Source: an uncultured Candidatus Saccharibacteria bacterium
Lineage (GTDB): Bacteria > Patescibacteriota > Minisyncoccia > UBA6257
Direction of reading: 5' to 3'
Assembly (NCBI GenBank): GCA_964479005.1
Contig: CAYZJA010000002.1
Location: 32,001 to 96,000, forward strand
Length of the DNA: 64,000 nt
In this document: positions 53,497 to 58,448 of the stretch, piece by piece
Layout of the letters: each line of letters opens with the position of its first letter
Numbering within the stretch: the first letter of the stretch is position 1
Notes under the pieces: model-generated
Told to the model about the DNA's origin: nothing
The model's database searches: none
The model's input: the letters and a program-made list of their open reading frames with translations, nothing else
Translations under genes and position numbers: made by a program

Positions 53497-53681
53497 TGGA
53501 CTCAGCGAGAATCGAACTCGCGTCTTCGCAACTTGCCCCCACACCATTATATTAGTGGACCCGAGGGGAATCGAACCCCTATCTCGGCAATGCGAATGCC
53601 GTGTAATACCATTGTACTACGGGCCCGTATTTTATGGTGTGGGGGTAAAAATGCGGTATATTACCACTATACTATGAGCCC
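53497..53681 (-). tRNA. Split/interrupted tRNA-like gene (Gly-like body, G3:U70) whose anticodon arm carries a ~150-nt insertion containing a complete tRNA-Ala
   Basis: The 5' half at 53681-53651 is GGGCTCA-TA-GTAT-AGTGGTAA-TATAC-CGCAT. The 3' half at 53530-53497 is TTGCG-AAGAC-GCGAG-TTCGATT-CTCGC-TGAGTCC-A. The acceptor halves pair perfectly (GGGCTCA/TGAGTCC). The insertion is clamped by the 12-bp inverted repeat CCCCCACACCAT/ATGGTGTGGGGG. Confidence 0.5.
53556..53626 (-). tRNA. tRNA-Ala (anticodon CGC), nested inside the split tRNA-like gene
   Basis: Hand-folded. The acceptor GGGCCCG/CGGGTCC has the G3:U70 alanine identity pair. The anticodon stem-loop is CGGCA-TTCGCAT-TGCCG and the T-arm is AGGGG-TTCGATT-CCCCT. 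Confidence 0.8.
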
Positions 53682-53885
53682 ATTAATTAAATTCACATTA
53701 TTTAAAATTATCTAAAATAGCATAGCAAAGATTTTAGATTTAAACAAATTTAAAGAAATAAAAAAGGAAGAAGAGAGGGGAGGTTCTTGTTCTGTCTTTA
53801 CCCTGAGATTTTACAGAGGAAGTACAATTACCCTTTTAGGAGATAAGTATCTCAACCTTGGCTTCTTCCTTATTTATATTCCCCT

Positions 53886-54083
53886 TTATTTAGATAGAAG
53901 ATCATTAAGCATTTCTTTGATAATCTCTTCACCAAATTCTTTCAATTCTGATAGGGGGATATTAGTGGCTTTGGCCATGTTACCTAACTCTCGTTTCATA
54001 TCTGGTCCGAGTCGCATACCTTCACGATTGAGCCGATACTTCAAGAGAATTAAAGCAATTTCACCTTTTCTTTTTTCATCCAT
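53886..54083 (-). CDS. Small hypothetical protein
   Basis: 65 aa with no recognised domain. Confidence 0.35.
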   Translation of the reverse strand: MDEKRKGEIALILLKYRLNREGMRLGPDMKRELGNMAKATNIPLSELKEFGEEIIKEMLNDLLSK

Positions 54084-54231
54084 GTTTTTAATTTAGTTAA
54101 ATTAATCGATCTTTATAGAATAGAGTTCTTTGAACTCTATTTGTTCTAAGTATACGTCTATTCTATTATTCTGTCAAGGTGGAAAATAATGATGGCTAAG
54201 GTTATAATCTTAGCCATTAACTAATTAATAG

Positions 54232-54302
54232 TCGGGGAACCGGGACTTGAACCCGGACTAAATCCTCCCAAAGGACTCGTGCTACCATTACACTATCCCC
54301 CG
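54232..54302 (-). tRNA. tRNA-Pro (anticodon TGG)
   Basis: C1:G72 acceptor (CGGGGGA/TTCCCCG). The anticodon stem-loop is AGTCC-TTTGGGA-GGATT and the T-arm is CCGGG-TTCAAGT-CCCGG. Confidence 0.8.
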
Positions 54303-54317
54303 ATATGTTTTTAACAG

Positions 54318-54391
54318 TGCCCTCGGCAGGACTCGAACCTGCACTCTTGTCCTTAGAAGAGACCTGCTTTATCCAATTAAGCTACGAGGGC
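54318..54391 (-). tRNA. tRNA-Arg (anticodon TCT)
   Basis: Acceptor GCCCTCG/CGAGGGC. The D-arm is GCTT..AAGC, the anticodon loop is CTTCTAA and the T-arm is GCAGG-TTCGAGT-CCTGC. Confidence 0.7.
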
Positions 54392-54534
54392 AATTCTTTT
54401 TGAGCTTATCTTCATTTGAGTTGCAGGGATGTCTGGTTTCTATTTTATCATACTTTTACTTGAAATAAAAGTTTTTTTGATTTATAATAAAGTAAAAGTG
54501 GGGCTTATATTTTAAAGATGAGAATAATGTATAT

Positions 54535-55701
54535 ATGCCCAAAGTAAAATGTAGAGTTTGCAAAAAGATATTCTATATCAAATCCAATTGGCTTAAAAGA
54601 GGATGGGGAAAATATTGTTCGAGGAAATGTCAGTACAAATCCCAATTGAAAGGAAAATTTGTGGTTTGCGCCTATTGCGGTAGAAGGGTATATCGATCAC
54701 TTGCTGAATTGCGCAGAAAATCTAAGGCAGGAGTTTATTTTTGTAATTTATCCTGTCATTGCGCTTGGAAAAATAAACAAAGGAAAAGTAAGGGAAGATT
54801 TAAATTACAAAATTTATGGGGACCGTGGTGTAATAGTAGCACTAGGACCTGTGGCGTCCTCGGTACGGATGCAAATTCCGTCGGTCCCCCATTTTTCTTT
54901 CTAAAATTCTTAAAGCCCAAGAAGAAAAAAAATAATCTTTTATTTCTTAAGCGGCCACCAAAGAAAATTCTTTATCATTTTTATTGGAAAAAGAATTATA
55001 CCCAAACAGAGATAGCTAAAATTTTTAATGCCACCCACACTAGCGTGAAAAGATGGTTTAATTATTATAAAATCATGGTGAAGTACCGAACTCTATCTTG
55101 TGGCCATAATCCCAATATTTTAAGAAATTTAAAATTAGGTCGTACAGATAAAGCTATTAGAAAATCGGCAGAAGCAAGAAGAATTTATTCAAAAGAAAAA
55201 CTTATTGAAAAAATAAAAGAATTTGTACAAAAAGAAGAAAGAATTCCTACAAAGAACGAATTTATTAATAATTCCTCTTATCCAGATTATGTCACTTACA
55301 GGCATTATTTTGGCACTTGGAATAATGCCATCAAGACAGCGGGCTACAAGCCAAATGAACAATGGTTTGCCTCAGGACATTTATTTGCTAAAGATGGGCA
55401 CAAATGTAATTCAATTTCAGAAATAATCATTGACGATTGGTTTTTTGAAAATGATATTTCTCATACGAGAGAGTGTTTATACCCAGAAGGACGATATCGC
55501 TGTGATTTTATGGTTGGCAATACTTTTATTGAATTTTTTGGTTTATTTAATGCTTCCATTGTTAACCCAAGTTATATTGAAATCGTTAAAAGAAAAAAAG
55601 AAATATGTAAGAAATTTAATATTGTCCTCATTGAACTCTATGAGAAGGATCTTTATAAATTAGATCAATCCTTGGGAGCAAAGATTGGATTAAAAGTATA
55701 A
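54535..55701 (+). CDS. Composite ORF: N-terminal double Zn-ribbon, HTH, HNH-repeat (homing-endonuclease-associated) and DUF559/Vsr-like PD-(D/E)xK nuclease region
   Basis: 388 aa. The CxxC..CxxxC repeat occurs twice. The other elements are an HTH (TQTEIAKIFNATHTSVKRW), an HNH-repeat-like motif (YVTYRHYFGTWNNAIKTAGY) and a C-terminal S.SE....DDW...N..H..E...P.G.YR.DF.V......IEF.G. The ORF reads through an embedded tRNA-His-like gene at 54818-54891 and a poly-A tract, so the true CDS boundaries are uncertain and it may be a fragmented gene. Confidence 0.4.
   Translation: MPKVKCRVCKKIFYIKSNWLKRGWGKYCSRKCQYKSQLKGKFVVCAYCGRRVYRSLAELRRKSKAGVYFCNLSCHCAWKNKQRKSKGRFKLQNLWGPWCNSSTRTCGVLGTDANSVGPPFFFLKFLKPKKKKNNLLFLKRPPKKILYHFYWKKNYTQTEIAKIFNATHTSVKRWFNYYKIMVKYRTLSCGHNPNILRNLKLGRTDKAIRKSAEARRIYSKEKLIEKIKEFVQKEERIPTKNEFINNSSYPDYVTYRHYFGTWNNAIKTAGYKPNEQWFASGHLFAKDGHKCNSISEIIIDDWFFENDISHTRECLYPEGRYRCDFMVGNTFIEFFGLFNASIVNPSYIEIVKRKKEICKKFNIVLIELYEKDLYKLDQSLGAKIGLKV
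54818..54891 (+). tRNA. tRNA-His-like gene (anticodon GTG) with encoded G-1:C73
   Basis: Hand-folded. G-1 is followed by the acceptor GGGACCG/CGGTCCC and discriminator C. The D-arm is GTGT..GCAC, the anticodon stem-loop is AGGAC-CTGTGGC-GTCCT and the T-arm is ACGGA-TGCAAAT-TCCGT. It is oriented opposite to the neighbouring tRNAs and lies inside the predicted ORF. Confidence 0.6.
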
Positions 55702-55791: not shown

Positions 55792-55819
55792 TTGACAAAT
55801 TATTTTTCTTTGTTATAAT
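55792..55819 (+). promoter_or_regulatory. Consensus sigma70 promoter (TTGACA-16-TATAAT)
   Basis: TTGACA at 55792-55797 and TATAAT at 55814-55819. Confidence 0.6.
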
Positions 55820-55822
55820 GGG

Positions 55823-55888
55823 AATGCTATCGTTTAGAGATATTAAATAGCTTGCTATCTAATTTCAAAAAGCGATAGCATTTTTTTT
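55823..55888 (+). ncRNA. Candidate small RNA / attenuator: 10-bp stem (aatgctatcg/cgatagcatt) enclosing an inner hairpin, followed by T8
   Basis: It starts about 4 nt downstream of the -10 element. The inner palindrome is atagcttgctat. The element ends in an 8-T tract at 55881-55888. Confidence 0.4.
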
Positions 55889-55957
55889 ACCGCAAAAATA
55901 TGAAGAGTAATCCTTCACATTTTTTAAATTCATAATATTTGGTATAATATAAATATT

Positions 55958-56266
55958 ATGAAAATAGATTGGAACAAAAAAATCGGAATGCAGGAAGAAA
56001 ATTACGGTTTAACGGTATTTGTTGGAGGGTTAATGCAAATAGTTTTTGGATTTAGTTTTGGTTTAATTCCTTTAGCCATTTTTATTATTACAGTAATCGC
56101 TTTTGTTTTAAGTTTGAAACATGACAGATACGAACCTTTTAGAAGAAGAATGAGTTTTATCGGTTTAGGCATTGTGATTACAATGGTTTTACTTTATTTT
56201 GTTTTTGGCTGGGTAGGAATTATTGGGACATTAGTAATGCCAAAATATGTTTCAATGTTAAGGTAA
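55958..56266 (+). CDS. Small membrane protein
   Basis: 102 aa with two long hydrophobic segments. Confidence 0.45.
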   Translation: MKIDWNKKIGMQEENYGLTVFVGGLMQIVFGFSFGLIPLAIFIITVIAFVLSLKHDRYEPFRRRMSFIGLGIVITMVLLYFVFGWVGIIGTLVMPKYVSMLR

Positions 56267-56321: not shown

Positions 56322-58448
56322 TTAATCTTTGCGCATAATCTGATGACGTGTATATGCCAACCAAATATCACGAATTTTACTTTCTACTCTAACTAAAGCA
56401 AGCTGTCCTTTAGGATTAAATTTCAGATAATACCAGATTATTAAAGCTGATATTAAGCTGATAATAAGAGATATTAACAAAGTGTTCAAAGGGCCTGTGC
56501 GGATTGTGGCAGCGCCTGCTACTAATCCATAGGTAATTGAAGCGCTATCTGTTATTTTAGTTTCATTGTCTGCTGTTACTTCAGCAGTATTGGTGTAAGT
56601 CAAATAAGTTCCTGAAGAAAGGCTGATAGCTTGGAATACAATTGCTTTACTAGCTCCTCTATAAATTGTTCCTAACGATAATCCGGTGGTAGCAATCGTA
56701 TCTGATTGTACTATGCCATTAATTTTAGTAGTACCAGGCATATAACTAAGTACAGAAGGCATAATATCTTTTAAGCTTACGTTATAAAGATCTTTATTAT
56801 TGCCAGCAGTTATAGTTAAGTGGAATTCAATTACATCGCCTTCAGTAACACGAATAACTTTTGAATATACTCTATCCCCAGAAGAAAGATTTCTTCCTAA
56901 TTTTGTCAAATTAAGGTTAGTGCTTATAGAAGTTACGTAGATCGTAACAGAGCGTGTGATTTGTCCGCCACTACCATAACAAGTTAAGCGATACGTTGTA
57001 TCAGAATTGGGAGAAGTAGATTCATATCCACTAGTTGATTTACTTCCGCTCCATCCATTAGAAGCAGTACAGTAGTTAGCATTAGTGGAGGTCCAGCGAA
57101 GATATGTAGATTCTCCTTGAGTAATCGTATATTTATCTGCCCAGAGATTAAGTGTAGGGGTATTAGTGTATTGTCCACTGACATTTACACTACAAGAAGT
57201 ACTTGCGCTTCTATTTTGTGAATCATGAACAGTTAAATAAGCTGTGTAATTACCATATGAACTAAAACTTTTTTGACTATATGAAGTACTACCATAAGTT
57301 GCCCCAGACCAATAATATGAATAATTTCCTGAACCACCAGAAATATTACTAGAAAAAGTAACTGTTTGGTCCGTTTGGGCTGGATTAGGGGAGGCAGAAC
57401 AAGAAACAGATAGAGATTGATTTGTTTGTTGACAAGCATTAGCACAATCATTATATGAAATATAAGAGCCAGAAGTTGTTTGATAACATTGATGGGTAGA
57501 ATAATTACAAGAATATCTTGTTTGGGCAATGCAGTTATTTTGGCAATTATTTAAAGAAGTGTAAGGACCAGAAGTTGATTGATAACATTGCCATGTAGAA
57601 GTATTGCATGCATATCTAGTTATGGGTGTTTGGCAAGCATTTGCACAATCATTTAAATTAGCATAAGCCCCATTAGTAGCTACATAACATTGATAAGTAT
57701 TTGTATTACAGGAATATCTTGTTGGTGCAATACAGTTATTTTGACATGTGCTTAAAGAGGTATATTGTCCATTAGAATCTACCACACATTGATAATTAGA
57801 ATTGCAAGTGTATCGAGTTACAGGCGGCTGACAATTAGTTGTGCAATCATTTAAATTAGCATAAGCCCCATTAGTAGCTACATAGCATTGATAAGTATTT
57901 GTATTGCATGAATATCTTGTTGGAGATGGAGGTGCCTGAACATAAACCGTAGCGCTATCAGTGACCGTATCGTAATGGCAGTTACTATTACAAGTGATTG
58001 TAAAAGCAGTAGTTTTAGTAAGATTATTAATAGATTTATTTCCATTAAGAGTTACGCTACCACTCCATTGATAATTATACGGAGAAGCAGATGCAGTACA
58101 GTAATTAGTATTAGAAGAAGTCCAGTGCAAAGTAGCAGAACTATTGTATGGAACAGAAGTCGGGGCAGCAGAAATATTTACTGATGGGGAATGGCAAATA
58201 GTAGTGGTTGTGGTAGGAGGACAGGTTGTTGTAGTGGTGCAAGGAGGTTGTGTAGTTGTAGTTGTGGTAGGGGTAGGATAATGGCAATCAGGATAATGGC
58301 AAGGTGGATAAGTAGTTGTAGTTGGACCCGTAACAATTATAGAAGCATCTACAAAAGATGGACTTATTAATGTAAATAGCAAAATAGCCCCTAAGACAAA
58401 GCTTGGGATTATATATTTTCTAAGAGTTCTATAAAAAAGCTTGTTCAT
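56322..58448 (-). CDS. Secreted surface protein: Thr/Pro linker, ~7 tandem ~31-aa Cys-rich repeats, DUF11-like domain, C-terminal TM anchor with basic tail
   Basis: 708 aa with a signal peptide. Repeats follow TRYSCNTNTYQCYVATNGAYANLNDC..NCQ.P. The DUF11-like region covers LNLTKLG...VIEFHLTITAGNN...AEVTADNE. The C-terminus reads ...IRTGP, then a hydrophobic helix, then K/R-rich sequence. Confidence 0.6.
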   Translation of the reverse strand: MNKLFYRTLRKYIIPSFVLGAILLFTLISPSFVDASIIVTGPTTTTYPPCHYPDCHYPTPTTTTTTQPPCTTTTTCPPTTTTTICHSPSVNISAAPTSVPYNSSATLHWTSSNTNYCTASASPYNYQWSGSVTLNGNKSINNLTKTTAFTITCNSNCHYDTVTDSATVYVQAPPSPTRYSCNTNTYQCYVATNGAYANLNDCTTNCQPPVTRYTCNSNYQCVVDSNGQYTSLSTCQNNCIAPTRYSCNTNTYQCYVATNGAYANLNDCANACQTPITRYACNTSTWQCYQSTSGPYTSLNNCQNNCIAQTRYSCNYSTHQCYQTTSGSYISYNDCANACQQTNQSLSVSCSASPNPAQTDQTVTFSSNISGGSGNYSYYWSGATYGSTSYSQKSFSSYGNYTAYLTVHDSQNRSASTSCSVNVSGQYTNTPTLNLWADKYTITQGESTYLRWTSTNANYCTASNGWSGSKSTSGYESTSPNSDTTYRLTCYGSGGQITRSVTIYVTSISTNLNLTKLGRNLSSGDRVYSKVIRVTEGDVIEFHLTITAGNNKDLYNVSLKDIMPSVLSYMPGTTKINGIVQSDTIATTGLSLGTIYRGASKAIVFQAISLSSGTYLTYTNTAEVTADNETKITDSASITYGLVAGAATIRTGPLNTLLISLIISLISALIIWYYLKFNPKGQLALVRVESKIRDIWLAYTRHQIMRKD

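What the first reader, a model, noticed from the sequence alone, without database searches (positions are those of the whole stretch)
54535..55701. tRNA-His-like cloverleaf embedded in-frame inside a composite homing-endonuclease-like ORF
A near-perfect tRNA folds at 54818-54891 on the plus strand. It has a 7-bp acceptor, a 4-bp D-stem, a 5-bp anticodon stem with loop CTGTGGC, a 5-bp T-stem, an encoded G-1 opposite discriminator C73 (the tRNA-His hallmark) and anticodon GTG.

It sits inside, and on the same strand as, a 388-aa ORF. Upstream of it the ORF encodes two Zn-ribbons. Downstream it encodes an HTH, an HNH-repeat-like motif and a DUF559/Vsr-like PD-(D/E)xK nuclease motif. A poly-A run (aagaagaaaaaaaataat) follows the tRNA.

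Either the ORF is an artefactual fusion across a real tRNA gene, or a tRNA gene has been inserted into or captured by a mobile-endonuclease gene. Both are noteworthy next to the tRNA island. The window shows no other tRNA-His.
Basis: partly seen in the sequence, partly recalled or inferred. Interest (0 to 1): 0.75.

Follow-up and report, generated by a model that had tools for sequence, protein, structure and literature searches.

The report
tRNA-His gene nested inside nuclease gene
A working histidine tRNA gene sits in-frame in the middle of a conserved, homing-endonuclease-like gene of a Patescibacteria genome, and both appear to be maintained by selection, so a single transcript probably serves as both tRNA precursor and messenger RNA.

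Summary
ARAGORN and Rfam (53.6 bits, cut-off 29) call tRNA-His(GUG) at 54818-54889. It lies on the same strand as the 388-aa ORF 54535-55701 and in frame with it.

It is not an artefactual fusion. The same 72-nt tRNA sits at the same codon phase in 19 distinct related loci, and 17 of them are open from Zn-ribbon to nuclease. The tRNA keeps 99% of its base pairs, with 12 compensatory pairs and an invariant G-1:C73. The coding segments on both sides, including the start-less linker after the tRNA, show frame-specific purifying selection (pN/pS 0.40, against about 0.8 in the shifted frames). All their indels are in frame.

In about 130 of 160 loci of the wider family, a tRNA-Pro or tRNA-His gene lies within 300 nt. 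A sister clade has tRNA-His just upstream of the gene.

Best model (inferred): one promoter makes a bifunctional transcript that is either translated or cut by RNase P/Z.

The closest precedent is selC nested in the selB C-terminal extension. This is a new variant. Not tested: whether this is the only tRNA-His gene in the genome.

The parts
54460..54488 (+). Sigma-70-like promoter TTGAAA-17-TATAAT, 46 nt upstream of the ORF start. It is the only promoter-like site upstream of the tRNA on this strand.
   Evidence: 11 of 12 matches. The same site is present in L001, L002 and L081. Most other relatives have TATAAT 6 nt before the ATG, a leaderless layout.
54535..55701 (+). 388-aa ORF (stop codon included) for a Zn-ribbon / HTH / HNH_repeat / Vsr-like nuclease protein that reads through the tRNA gene.
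54535..54789 (+). N-terminal domain, aa 1-85: two CxxC-x18-21-CxxxC zinc ribbons (TRASH/MYM-like).
   Evidence: Cys residues nearly invariant. Match to 2das MYM zinc finger, E 0.012. pLDDT about 90. pN/pS 0.32.
54818..54889 (+). tRNA-His(GUG), from G-1 to discriminator C73 (72 nt). It is translated as residues 95-119 (WGPWCNSSTRTCGVLGTDANSVGPP).
   Evidence: The peptide segment is predicted disordered.
54892..54960 (+). Post-tRNA linker, aa 120-142 (FFFLKFLKPKKKKNNLLFLKRPPKK...). It is K-rich and contains no in-frame ATG, GTG or TTG.
   Evidence: pN/pS 0.40 in the ORF frame against 0.87-0.89 in the shifted frames; stops in the other frames. It is homologous to the linker of the tRNA-less sister clade.
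54961..55068 (+). Helix-turn-helix, aa 143-178.
   Evidence: Match to the DeoR DNA-binding domain 7bhy, E 0.002. Weak Pfam HTH_28. pLDDT above 90.
55186..55350 (+). HNH_repeat (PF18780, 'homing endonuclease associated repeat'), aa 218-272.
   Evidence: E 2.5e-13, 50.6 bits against a cut-off of 26. phrog_22655.
55375..55698 (+). C-terminal restriction-endonuclease-like (Vsr-like) nuclease domain, aa 281-388. Invariant residues are D287, G288, H289, E296, D300, H310, D324, E333 and K354.
53555..54391 (-). Neighbouring tRNA cluster: tRNA-Ala(CGC), tRNA-Pro(UGG) and tRNA-Arg(UCU). tRNA-Arg(UCU) is the conserved neighbour of this tRNA-His/nuclease unit in relatives.

Best explanation
**What it is.** A functional tRNA-His(GUG) gene is nested, co-oriented and in frame, in the interdomain linker of a conserved nuclease gene. 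That gene encodes an N-terminal double Zn-ribbon, an HTH, an HNH_repeat DNA-binding module and a C-terminal Vsr-like nuclease. It belongs to a Patescibacteria family that almost always sits beside a tRNA-Pro or tRNA-His gene, which suggests a free-standing homing-endonuclease-like selfish gene.

**Shown here.**
- The tRNA structure is under selection.
- The coding sequence on both sides of the tRNA is under selection.
- The reading frame through the tRNA is maintained over deep divergence.
- The tRNA-encoded 24 residues lie in a predicted disordered linker.

**Inferred mechanism.**
1. The promoter upstream of the ORF makes one bifunctional RNA. In most relatives this promoter has a leaderless TATAAT-N6-ATG layout.
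2. If ribosomes translate the RNA before it is processed, they unwind the tRNA segment and make the full-length nuclease.
3. If the tRNA folds first, RNase P cuts 5' of G-1 and RNase Z or exonucleases cut 3' of C73. This releases tRNA-His.
4. That processing leaves a non-stop 5' fragment and a start-less 3' fragment, so tRNA maturation and nuclease synthesis exclude each other on any one transcript. Nuclease output would stay low, and the gene would be hard to lose.
For: **The tRNA is real and under structural selection.**
- It is called by ARAGORN and Rfam.
- In 16 distinct embedded tRNAs, 99.1% of cells are paired and 12 pairs show compensatory changes. Controls with slid partners reach 55% at most. 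G-1:C73 and the GUG anticodon are invariant.

**The arrangement is conserved.**
- The same tRNA length and codon phase occur in 19 distinct loci. In 17 of them one frame runs from Zn-ribbon to nuclease.
- About 40 full-length protein clusters cover the whole ORF.

**The flanks are translated.**
- pN/pS: N-terminal domain 0.32, pre-tRNA linker 0.43, post-tRNA linker 0.40, C-terminal region 0.22-0.25.
- Synonymous divergence (pS) is only 0.37 in the tRNA segment, against 0.62-0.72 in the flanks.
- The signal is frame-specific, and the other frames carry stops.
- The post-tRNA linker is 0, 16, 18, 19, 20 or 22 codons long. In-frame deletions occur in L094 and L087.

**No independent expression signals.**
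- There is no conserved start codon between the tRNA and the HTH.
- No promoter-like site lies between the ORF start and the tRNA in any of 18 loci.
- No + strand terminator follows the tRNA.

**Protein architecture.**
- AlphaFold2 mean pLDDT is 79; residues 89-137 are disordered.

**The family is linked to tRNA genes.** About 130 of 160 loci have a tRNA within 300 nt of the ORF. The sister clade has tRNA-Arg, tRNA-His and then the ORF ATG about 21 nt later.

**Precedent.** The same mutual-exclusion model was proposed for selC nested in selB (PMC8124441).
Against: - There is no expression data: no RNA ends, no peptides.
- The rest of the genome could not be scanned, so a second tRNA-His gene is not excluded.
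- The elbow is non-canonical (A18, G55). One sub-clade (L082, L085, L100) has T-loop CGCRCAU, which may mean a weakened tRNA.
- Several copies are degenerate: L085 has an in-frame stop, L100 has frameshifts, L081 has ATG changed to ATA, and L002, L093 and P0054 carry truncations. The protein is therefore dispensable and not always maintained.
- Homing activity and the cleavage target are entirely inferred.
- Only one reading frame of the tRNA is closed, so openness across the tRNA itself is weak evidence.
Confidence: 0.68

Rival explanations
1. Artefactual or decaying fusion. A real tRNA gene lies between two unrelated or dead ORF fragments, and the long ORF is open by chance. No full-length protein is made.
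For: - Two of the three frames of the tRNA lack stops, so read-through of the tRNA alone is not improbable (sequence).
- Some relatives are broken (L085, L100).
- NCBI and JGI annotators call only the C-terminal part (P0041, P0047-P0049).
Against: - The N-terminal and C-terminal parts form one protein in the tRNA-less sister clade and in the distant family.
- 17 of 19 loci are open.
- pN/pS is frame-specific, at 0.3-0.4 in both flanks.
- All linker indels are in frame.
- No conserved restart codon follows the tRNA.
- The truncated annotations begin at arbitrary GTG or TTG codons. This is what pipelines that mask tRNAs first would produce.
Confidence: 0.06
2. The nested tRNA is a redundant, element-borne copy or a tRNA-shaped RNase P cleavage signal that only throttles nuclease expression. 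The cell's working tRNA-His is encoded elsewhere.
For: - The elbow is non-canonical: A18/G55 in 15 of 16 sequences.
- The T-loop is further degraded in the L082, L085 and L100 sub-clade.
- G55 tRNAs are found only in the tRNA species that neighbour this gene family.
Against: - G-1:C73, the GUG anticodon and all four stems are strictly maintained, with compensatory changes. Positions 18 and 55 change together, which implies selection for a folded, usable tRNA.
- tRNA-Arg(UCU) is the conserved neighbour both of the nested tRNA-His and of the sister clade's ordinary upstream tRNA-His. This indicates positional orthology.
- There is no other tRNA-His in the 64-kb window.
Confidence: 0.15
3. The two halves are translated separately. 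After tRNA excision, the 3' fragment would be translated from a non-canonical start and the Zn-ribbon would be a separate small protein.
For: - RNase P/Z processing of an embedded tRNA is expected from general tRNA biology.
- Scattered in-frame TTG or GTG codons exist in some relatives.
Against: - No start-like codon is conserved in position. The window has none before the GTG inside the HTH.
- The 5' fragment has no stop codon, so it would be a non-stop message.
- The post-tRNA linker directly after the cleavage site is under coding selection.
Confidence: 0.07
4. The tRNA acts as an 'intron'. RNase P and RNase Z excise exactly 72 nt (24 codons) and an RNA ligase rejoins the mRNA halves, giving both the tRNA and a 364-aa protein from one transcript.
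For: - The span from G-1 to C73 is 72 nt in all 16 sequences, so its removal keeps the frame.
- The predicted cleavage ends (3'-OH and 5'-phosphate) are chemically ligatable. This rests on general knowledge, not on a test here.
Against: - No such pathway is known in bacteria.
- The constant length is equally explained by tRNA constraints.
- No ligase is linked to the locus.
- This rival is pure inference.
Confidence: 0.03

Closest known systems
selC (tRNA-Sec) nested in the selB ORF of Alphaproteobacteria (Mukai 2021, PMC8124441)
   Same: An entire tRNA gene lies co-oriented inside a bacterial protein ORF and is translated as conserved peptide. The trait is conserved across relatives. The proposed model is the same: tRNA processing and full-length translation exclude each other, leaving a non-stop 5' fragment.
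   Different: - There, the tRNA sits in a C-terminal extension after all functional SelB domains. Here it lies between two conserved domains, so read-through is needed for any nuclease-bearing protein.
- The tRNA (His rather than Sec), the host protein and the phylum all differ.
- Here the host gene looks selfish rather than functionally tied to the tRNA.
Mitochondrial tRNA genes overlapping protein genes, e.g. tRNA-Lys inside cox1 of Armadillidium vulgare (cited in PMC8124441)
   Same: A tRNA is fully integrated in a coding region in direct orientation, and alternative processing has been proposed.
   Different: That case is an organellar genome under extreme compaction, with a truncated 60-nt tRNA. 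Here the tRNA is a full cloverleaf in a bacterial chromosome that has ordinary intergenic space.
I-Bth0305I / 'EDxHD' Vsr-like homing endonucleases (PMC3239194)
   Different: I-Bth0305I is encoded in an intron or intein and uses NUMOD motifs. No sequence-level match was found, and the EDxHD motif was not verified here. This protein is free-standing and uses Zn-ribbons, an HTH and an HNH_repeat.
Phage T4 SegB, a free-standing homing endonuclease in a tRNA gene cluster (PMC2330249)
   Same: It is a free-standing endonuclease gene embedded among tRNA genes, and it drives preferential inheritance of the tRNA region (abstract).
   Different: SegB is a GIY-YIG enzyme from a phage, and its gene does not overlap a tRNA gene.
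I-Ssp6803I, a PD-(D/E)xK homing endonuclease encoded in the tRNA-fMet group I intron of Synechocystis (recalled from my own knowledge, not checked here)
   Same: A restriction-endonuclease-fold homing enzyme is physically coupled to a tRNA gene.
   Different: The topology is inverted: there the nuclease gene lies inside the tRNA gene (in an intron), and here the tRNA gene lies inside the nuclease gene.

Membership tests
Bacterial tRNA-His | Cloverleaf scoring above the Rfam tRNA gathering score, with a GUG anticodon | tested here: met
   RF00005 scores 53.6 bits against 29. ARAGORN calls tRNA-His(gtg).
Bacterial tRNA-His | Genome-encoded G-1 opposite discriminator C73 | tested here: met
   G at 54818 and C at 54889. 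The G:C pair is invariant in 16 of 16 embedded tRNAs.
Bacterial tRNA-His | Stems maintained by compensatory substitutions across relatives | tested here: met
   99.1% of cells paired, 12 pairs with changes on both sides, slid controls at most 55%.
Bacterial tRNA-His | Universal elbow nucleotides G18 G19 and U54 U55 C56 | tested here: not met
   The D-loop is AAUAGUA (A18) and the T-loop is UGCAAAU (G55). Positions 18 and 55 co-vary: L003, P0039 and P0054 keep G18/U55.
Bacterial tRNA-His | Expressed, processed and charged with histidine; the only tRNA-His gene of the genome | not testable with these tools
   Only 64 kb of a contig of at least 551 kb is visible.
[quoted passage not shown] | Whole tRNA on the coding strand inside the ORF, with the frame kept open in orthologs | tested here: met
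   17 of 19 distinct loci are open.
[quoted passage not shown] | tRNA located in a terminal extension after the functional domains | tested here: not met
   The tRNA lies between the Zn-ribbon domain (aa 1-85) and the HTH/nuclease part (aa 143-388).
[quoted passage not shown] | Alternative fates of the transcript (tRNA or protein) | not testable with these tools
   This needs RNA end mapping, ribosome profiling or proteomics.
Vsr-like / EDxHD homing endonucleases | Vsr-like restriction-endonuclease fold in the catalytic domain | tested here: met
Vsr-like / EDxHD homing endonucleases | Composite EDxHD catalytic motif | tested here: inconclusive
   The profile search against PDB sequences found no nuclease match at E up to 1. 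Invariant E296, D300, H310, D324, E333 and K354 exist but were not superposed on the I-Bth0305I residues.
Vsr-like / EDxHD homing endonucleases | [quoted passage not shown] | tested here: not met
   The ORF is free-standing with its own promoter. No intron family was found by Rfam.
Free-standing homing endonuclease genes | Insertion next to a highly conserved gene that can serve as the target | tested here: met
   About 130 of 160 loci have a tRNA-Pro or tRNA-His gene within 300 nt of the ORF or inside it.
Free-standing homing endonuclease genes | Sporadic degeneration of copies | tested here: met
   L085 has a stop, L100/L007 have frameshifts, L081 has lost its start, and L002, L093, L094, P0042 and P0054 carry truncations or deletions.
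Free-standing homing endonuclease genes | Site-specific cleavage of an endonuclease-less allele, and empty alleles present in relatives | not tested
PADLOC candidate defence system PDC-S69 | Full-length match to the PDC-S69 model | tested here: not met
   Only the nuclease domain matches (aa 282-384 to model positions 180-281 of 289; E 3.5e-13).

The most novel reading that the evidence does not exclude
A selfish, tRNA-targeting endonuclease gene has wrapped itself around the cell's only tRNA-His gene.

- The essential tRNA would be made solely from the nuclease's (often leaderless) mRNA.
- Competition between ribosomes and RNase P/Z on that RNA would set the nuclease level.
- The host could not delete the element without losing tRNA-His expression.
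- The co-varying A18/G55 elbow seen only in tRNAs that neighbour this family would mark cleavage-immune tRNA alleles that spread together with the nuclease gene.
Probability: 0.3. Interest if true: 0.9.

Novelty: new variant of a known kind. Interest (0 to 1): 0.8.

Why it matters
Overlap of a tRNA gene with a protein ORF in bacteria has been reported once, bioinformatically, and there only in a dispensable C-terminal tail. Here the tRNA lies between two conserved domains. Both products are under selection, and the arrangement has persisted to about 50% protein divergence. One RNA must therefore be read in two incompatible ways.

- **A testable system.** It offers a natural system for studying competition between translation and RNase P/Z processing, and shows how a selfish gene can make itself hard to delete.
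- **An annotation blind spot.** Pipelines that mask tRNAs first truncate the protein, so this arrangement goes unannotated.
- **A new family.** It reveals a large, undescribed family of tRNA-linked nuclease genes in Patescibacteria.
- **A tRNA structure lead.** It turns up a natural G18:U55 to A18:G55 covariation at the tRNA elbow.

Tried and rejected
1. **tRNA remnants in the sister clade.** I looked for them in the linker of the tRNA-less sister clade (L095, L098, L099). Only chance 5-14 nt matches turned up. There is thus no evidence that the nested state is ancestral to both clades.
2. **Sequence search against PDB chains with the family profile.** Only HTH and MYM-finger matches appeared, and nothing for the nuclease domain.
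4. **Pfam, NCBIfam and PHROGs.** Only HNH_repeat passes. There is no DUF559 or Vsr sequence hit.
5. **Viral contigs.** Only distant partial relatives were found, so the element is not obviously phage-borne.
6. **Internal promoter or restart codon for separate expression.** None is conserved.
7. **Poly-A frameshift idea.** The tract encodes a conserved Lys-rich linker and is intact here. A one-base loss just after the homologous Lys-rich tract occurs in L100/L007.
8. **Literature.** Searches for nested tRNAs in CPR bacteria, for PF18780 and for A18/G55 found only the selB-selC report and nothing on this family.
9. **Organism and rest of genome.** Locating them through the look-up of encoding contigs gave only short Logan contigs.
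Full report
**1. The observation**

ARAGORN finds six tRNAs in the window. One is tRNA-His(gtg) at 54819-54890 on the + strand, and it is the only tRNA-His. Rfam's tRNA model scores it 53.6 bits against a gathering score of 29.

Read directly from the sequence:
- G-1 is 54818.
- The acceptor stem is GGGACCG/CGGTCCC.
- The discriminator C73 is 54889.
- CCA is not fully encoded (C-A-T follows).

The 388-aa ORF 54535-55701 is open through the tRNA. Codon 95 (TGG) contains G-1 and G1. Between the tRNA and the GTG inside the HTH there is no in-frame ATG, GTG or TTG.

One nuance: the elbow is not canonical. The D-loop is AAUAGUA (A at position 18) and the T-loop is UGCAAAU (G at position 55).

**2. 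The ORF is conserved across the tRNA**

A protein search returned 82 relatives, all from Patescibacteria/Parcubacteria metagenomes. About 40 cluster representatives of 357-426 aa cover at least 98% of the query at 52-87% identity.

In the alignment, most relatives keep the translated tRNA segment (LWGxWCNSSxxxCGxxxxDANSxxxP). A minority (P0036, P0038, P0040, P0043, P0044, P0046) lack it but keep both the Zn-ribbons and the K-rich linker plus HTH.

DNA loci were collected through C-terminal motifs only, so sampling does not depend on the state of the tRNA region. They give 19 distinct loci, window included, that carry the tRNA inside the gene. In every one the tRNA is on the same strand, spans 72 nt from G-1 to C73, and sits at the same codon phase. 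Seventeen of the 19 have one uninterrupted frame from Zn-ribbon to nuclease. The two exceptions:
- L085 has one in-frame stop.
- L100/L007 has two frameshifts.

**3. Both genes are under selection**

*The tRNA.* Sixteen distinct sequences were compared.
- 99.1% of cells are paired.
- 12 of 22 pairs have changes on both sides.
- Controls with slid partners reach at most 55% pairing.
- G-1:C73 and the anticodon are invariant.

*The coding sequence.* pN/pS by region:

| Region | pN/pS |
|---|---|
| Zn-ribbon domain | 0.32 |
| Pre-tRNA linker | 0.43 |
| Post-tRNA linker | 0.40 |
| Remainder of the protein | 0.22-0.25 |

Synonymous divergence in the tRNA segment is about half that of the flanks (0.37 against 0.62-0.72). 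This is as expected if RNA function constrains silent sites.

The signal is frame-specific. For the two linkers together, pN/pS is 0.40 (bootstrap 0.30-0.53) in the ORF frame and 0.78-0.81 in the shifted frames. In most loci the shifted frames also carry 1-3 stops in the post-tRNA linker.

Linker length after the tRNA varies (0, 16, 18, 19, 20 or 22 codons). There are larger in-frame deletions in L094 (second Zn-ribbon) and L087 (K-rich linker). All of these keep the frame.

No start-like codon is conserved downstream of the tRNA.

The simplest reading is that the nuclease-bearing protein can only be made by translating through the tRNA sequence.

Protein calls from JGI and NCBI start at arbitrary GTG or TTG codons after the tRNA (P0041, P0047-P0049, P0052, P0053). 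This shows how annotation pipelines hide the arrangement.

**4. The protein**

AlphaFold2 on an 81-sequence alignment gives mean pLDDT 79. There are confident domains at residues 1-85, 143-178, 220-268 and 285-388. Residues 89-137 form a disordered stretch that contains the tRNA-encoded residues 95-119.

- **N-terminus.** Two CxxC...CxxxC zinc ribbons, with a weak match to a MYM-type finger.
- **Residues 143-178.** An HTH resembling the DeoR DNA-binding domain.
- **Residues 218-272.** Pfam HNH_repeat, the 'homing endonuclease associated repeat'.

The architecture, modular DNA-binding motifs followed by a Vsr-like nuclease, parallels what was described for I-Bth0305I (PMC3239194). I did not verify the EDxHD motif.

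**5. The family is tied to tRNA genes**

Across 160 loci, about 130 have a tRNA within 300 nt of the ORF. The three common configurations are:
- tRNA-Pro(GGG or CGG) just upstream in either orientation, with a recurrent 26-nt divergent spacing.
- tRNA-His just upstream.
- tRNA-His inside the gene.

In the sister clade of the window's gene, the order is promoter, tRNA-Arg(UCU), 2 nt, tRNA-His, about 21 nt, ATG (L095). In L098 it is tRNA-His, terminator, TATAAT-N6-ATG.

tRNA-Arg(UCU) is also the conserved neighbour in the nested clade. The nested tRNA-His therefore looks like the positional ortholog of the ordinary chromosomal gene.

The sister-clade linker contains no tRNA remnant, so the direction and mechanism of the rearrangement stay open. 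Tandem duplication of [tRNA-His + Zn-ribbon segment] followed by two losses would do it. That is inference.

Degenerate copies are common: a stop, frameshifts, a lost start and domain deletions. This pattern is typical of selfish endonuclease genes.

**6. Transcription**

In the window, the only promoter-like site upstream of the tRNA on the + strand is TTGAAA-17-TATAAT at 54460-54488. No + strand terminator follows the tRNA.

In most relatives a TTTACY-16/17-TATAAT promoter ends 6 nt before the ATG, which predicts a leaderless mRNA. No promoter-like site lies between the ORF start and the tRNA in any of 18 loci.

I infer that the tRNA precursor and the mRNA are the same molecule.

**7. Mechanism proposed**

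This section is inferred, with confidence about 0.7 for the dual-use transcript and lower for the details.

- Translation of an unprocessed transcript yields the full nuclease.
- If the tRNA folds first, RNase P cuts 5' of G-1 and RNase Z cuts 3' of C73, because CCA is not encoded. This yields tRNA-His plus two untranslatable halves.

This is the model Mukai proposed for selC nested in selB, described there as the first nested tRNA in a bacterial ORF (PMC8124441). The difference is that in selB the tRNA occupies a C-terminal extension, whereas here it separates two conserved domains.

No paper in the searchable library describes this family or this arrangement.

**8. Side finding**

G55 in the T-loop always coincides with loss of GG in the D-loop (35 of 35 tRNAs). 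It occurs only in tRNA-His (14 of 17) and tRNA-Pro GGG/CGG (21 of 96). These are the tRNA species that neighbour this gene family. It never occurs in about 60 other tRNAs on the same contigs.

Within the nested clade, L003, P0039 and P0054 keep G18/U55 and the rest have A18/G55.

The variant also occurs in non-nested tRNA-Pro genes, so coding constraints do not impose it. It could mark nuclease-resistant tRNA alleles. That is speculation and lacks a control set of tRNAs from genomes without the gene.

**9. Limits**

- There are no expression data.
- The rest of the genome was not scanned for a second tRNA-His.
- Homing and the cleavage target are untested.
- The T-loop variants CGCACAU and CGCGCAU in the L082, L085 and L100 sub-clade may be weakened tRNAs.

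**Verdict**

This is a real and conserved feature: a new variant of the rare 'tRNA nested in an ORF' arrangement, in a previously undescribed tRNA-linked nuclease family.

Noticed in passing
window 54832-54838 and 54870-54876; loci L001-L160: There is covariation at the tRNA elbow. G55 in the T-loop (UGCAAAU) always comes with loss of G18 in the D-loop (35 of 35 tRNAs). It is seen only in the tRNA-His and tRNA-Pro(GGG/CGG) genes that neighbour this nuclease family, and never in about 60 other tRNAs on the same contigs. L003, P0039 and P0054 keep canonical G18/U55. These could be nuclease-immune alleles.
   Followed up: partly
L008-L080 and L101-L160 (family-wide): The roughly 280-aa relatives of the protein (about 40% identity, no HTH) sit beside tRNA-Pro(GGG/CGG) in most loci. 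The tRNA is either co-oriented upstream or divergent, with a recurring spacing of exactly 26 nt. In a few loci (L055, L140) the ORF runs over an antisense tRNA-Pro(CGG).
   Followed up: partly
window 55792-55890 (+): A perfect extended promoter (TTGACA-16-TG-TATAAT) is followed by a 62-nt long hairpin and a U-run (MFE -21.3 kcal/mol, z -5.1). There is no Rfam match. It lies upstream of a small membrane ORF (55958-56266). It may be a small RNA or an attenuator leader.
   Followed up: partly
L003, L005, L006, L082, L084, L085, L087, L089, L091, L093, L094, L098: TATAAT lies exactly 6 nt before the ATG of the nuclease ORF, predicting a leaderless mRNA. The window's sub-clade (with L001, L002 and L081) instead has a promoter 58-75 nt upstream.
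   Followed up: partly
L082/L083, L085, L007/L100: A sub-clade of nested tRNA-His genes has T-loop CGCACAU or CGCGCAU (C54, C/G58), and ARAGORN misses some of them. Two of the three host ORFs are broken (L085 has a stop, L100 has frameshifts). This hints at joint decay of the tRNA and the ORF.
   Followed up: no
window 56322-58448 (-): A 708-aa ORF has a Thr/Pro/Cys-rich N-terminus, repeated 'RYSCNTNTYQCY...' modules and a C-terminal hydrophobic segment. It is probably a repetitive surface protein.
   Followed up: no
proteins P0041, P0047, P0048, P0049, P0052, P0053: Public annotations of relatives start at arbitrary GTG or TTG codons just after the tRNA. Pipelines that mask tRNA genes before calling CDSs truncate this protein and leave the Zn-ribbon part unannotated.
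   Followed up: yes
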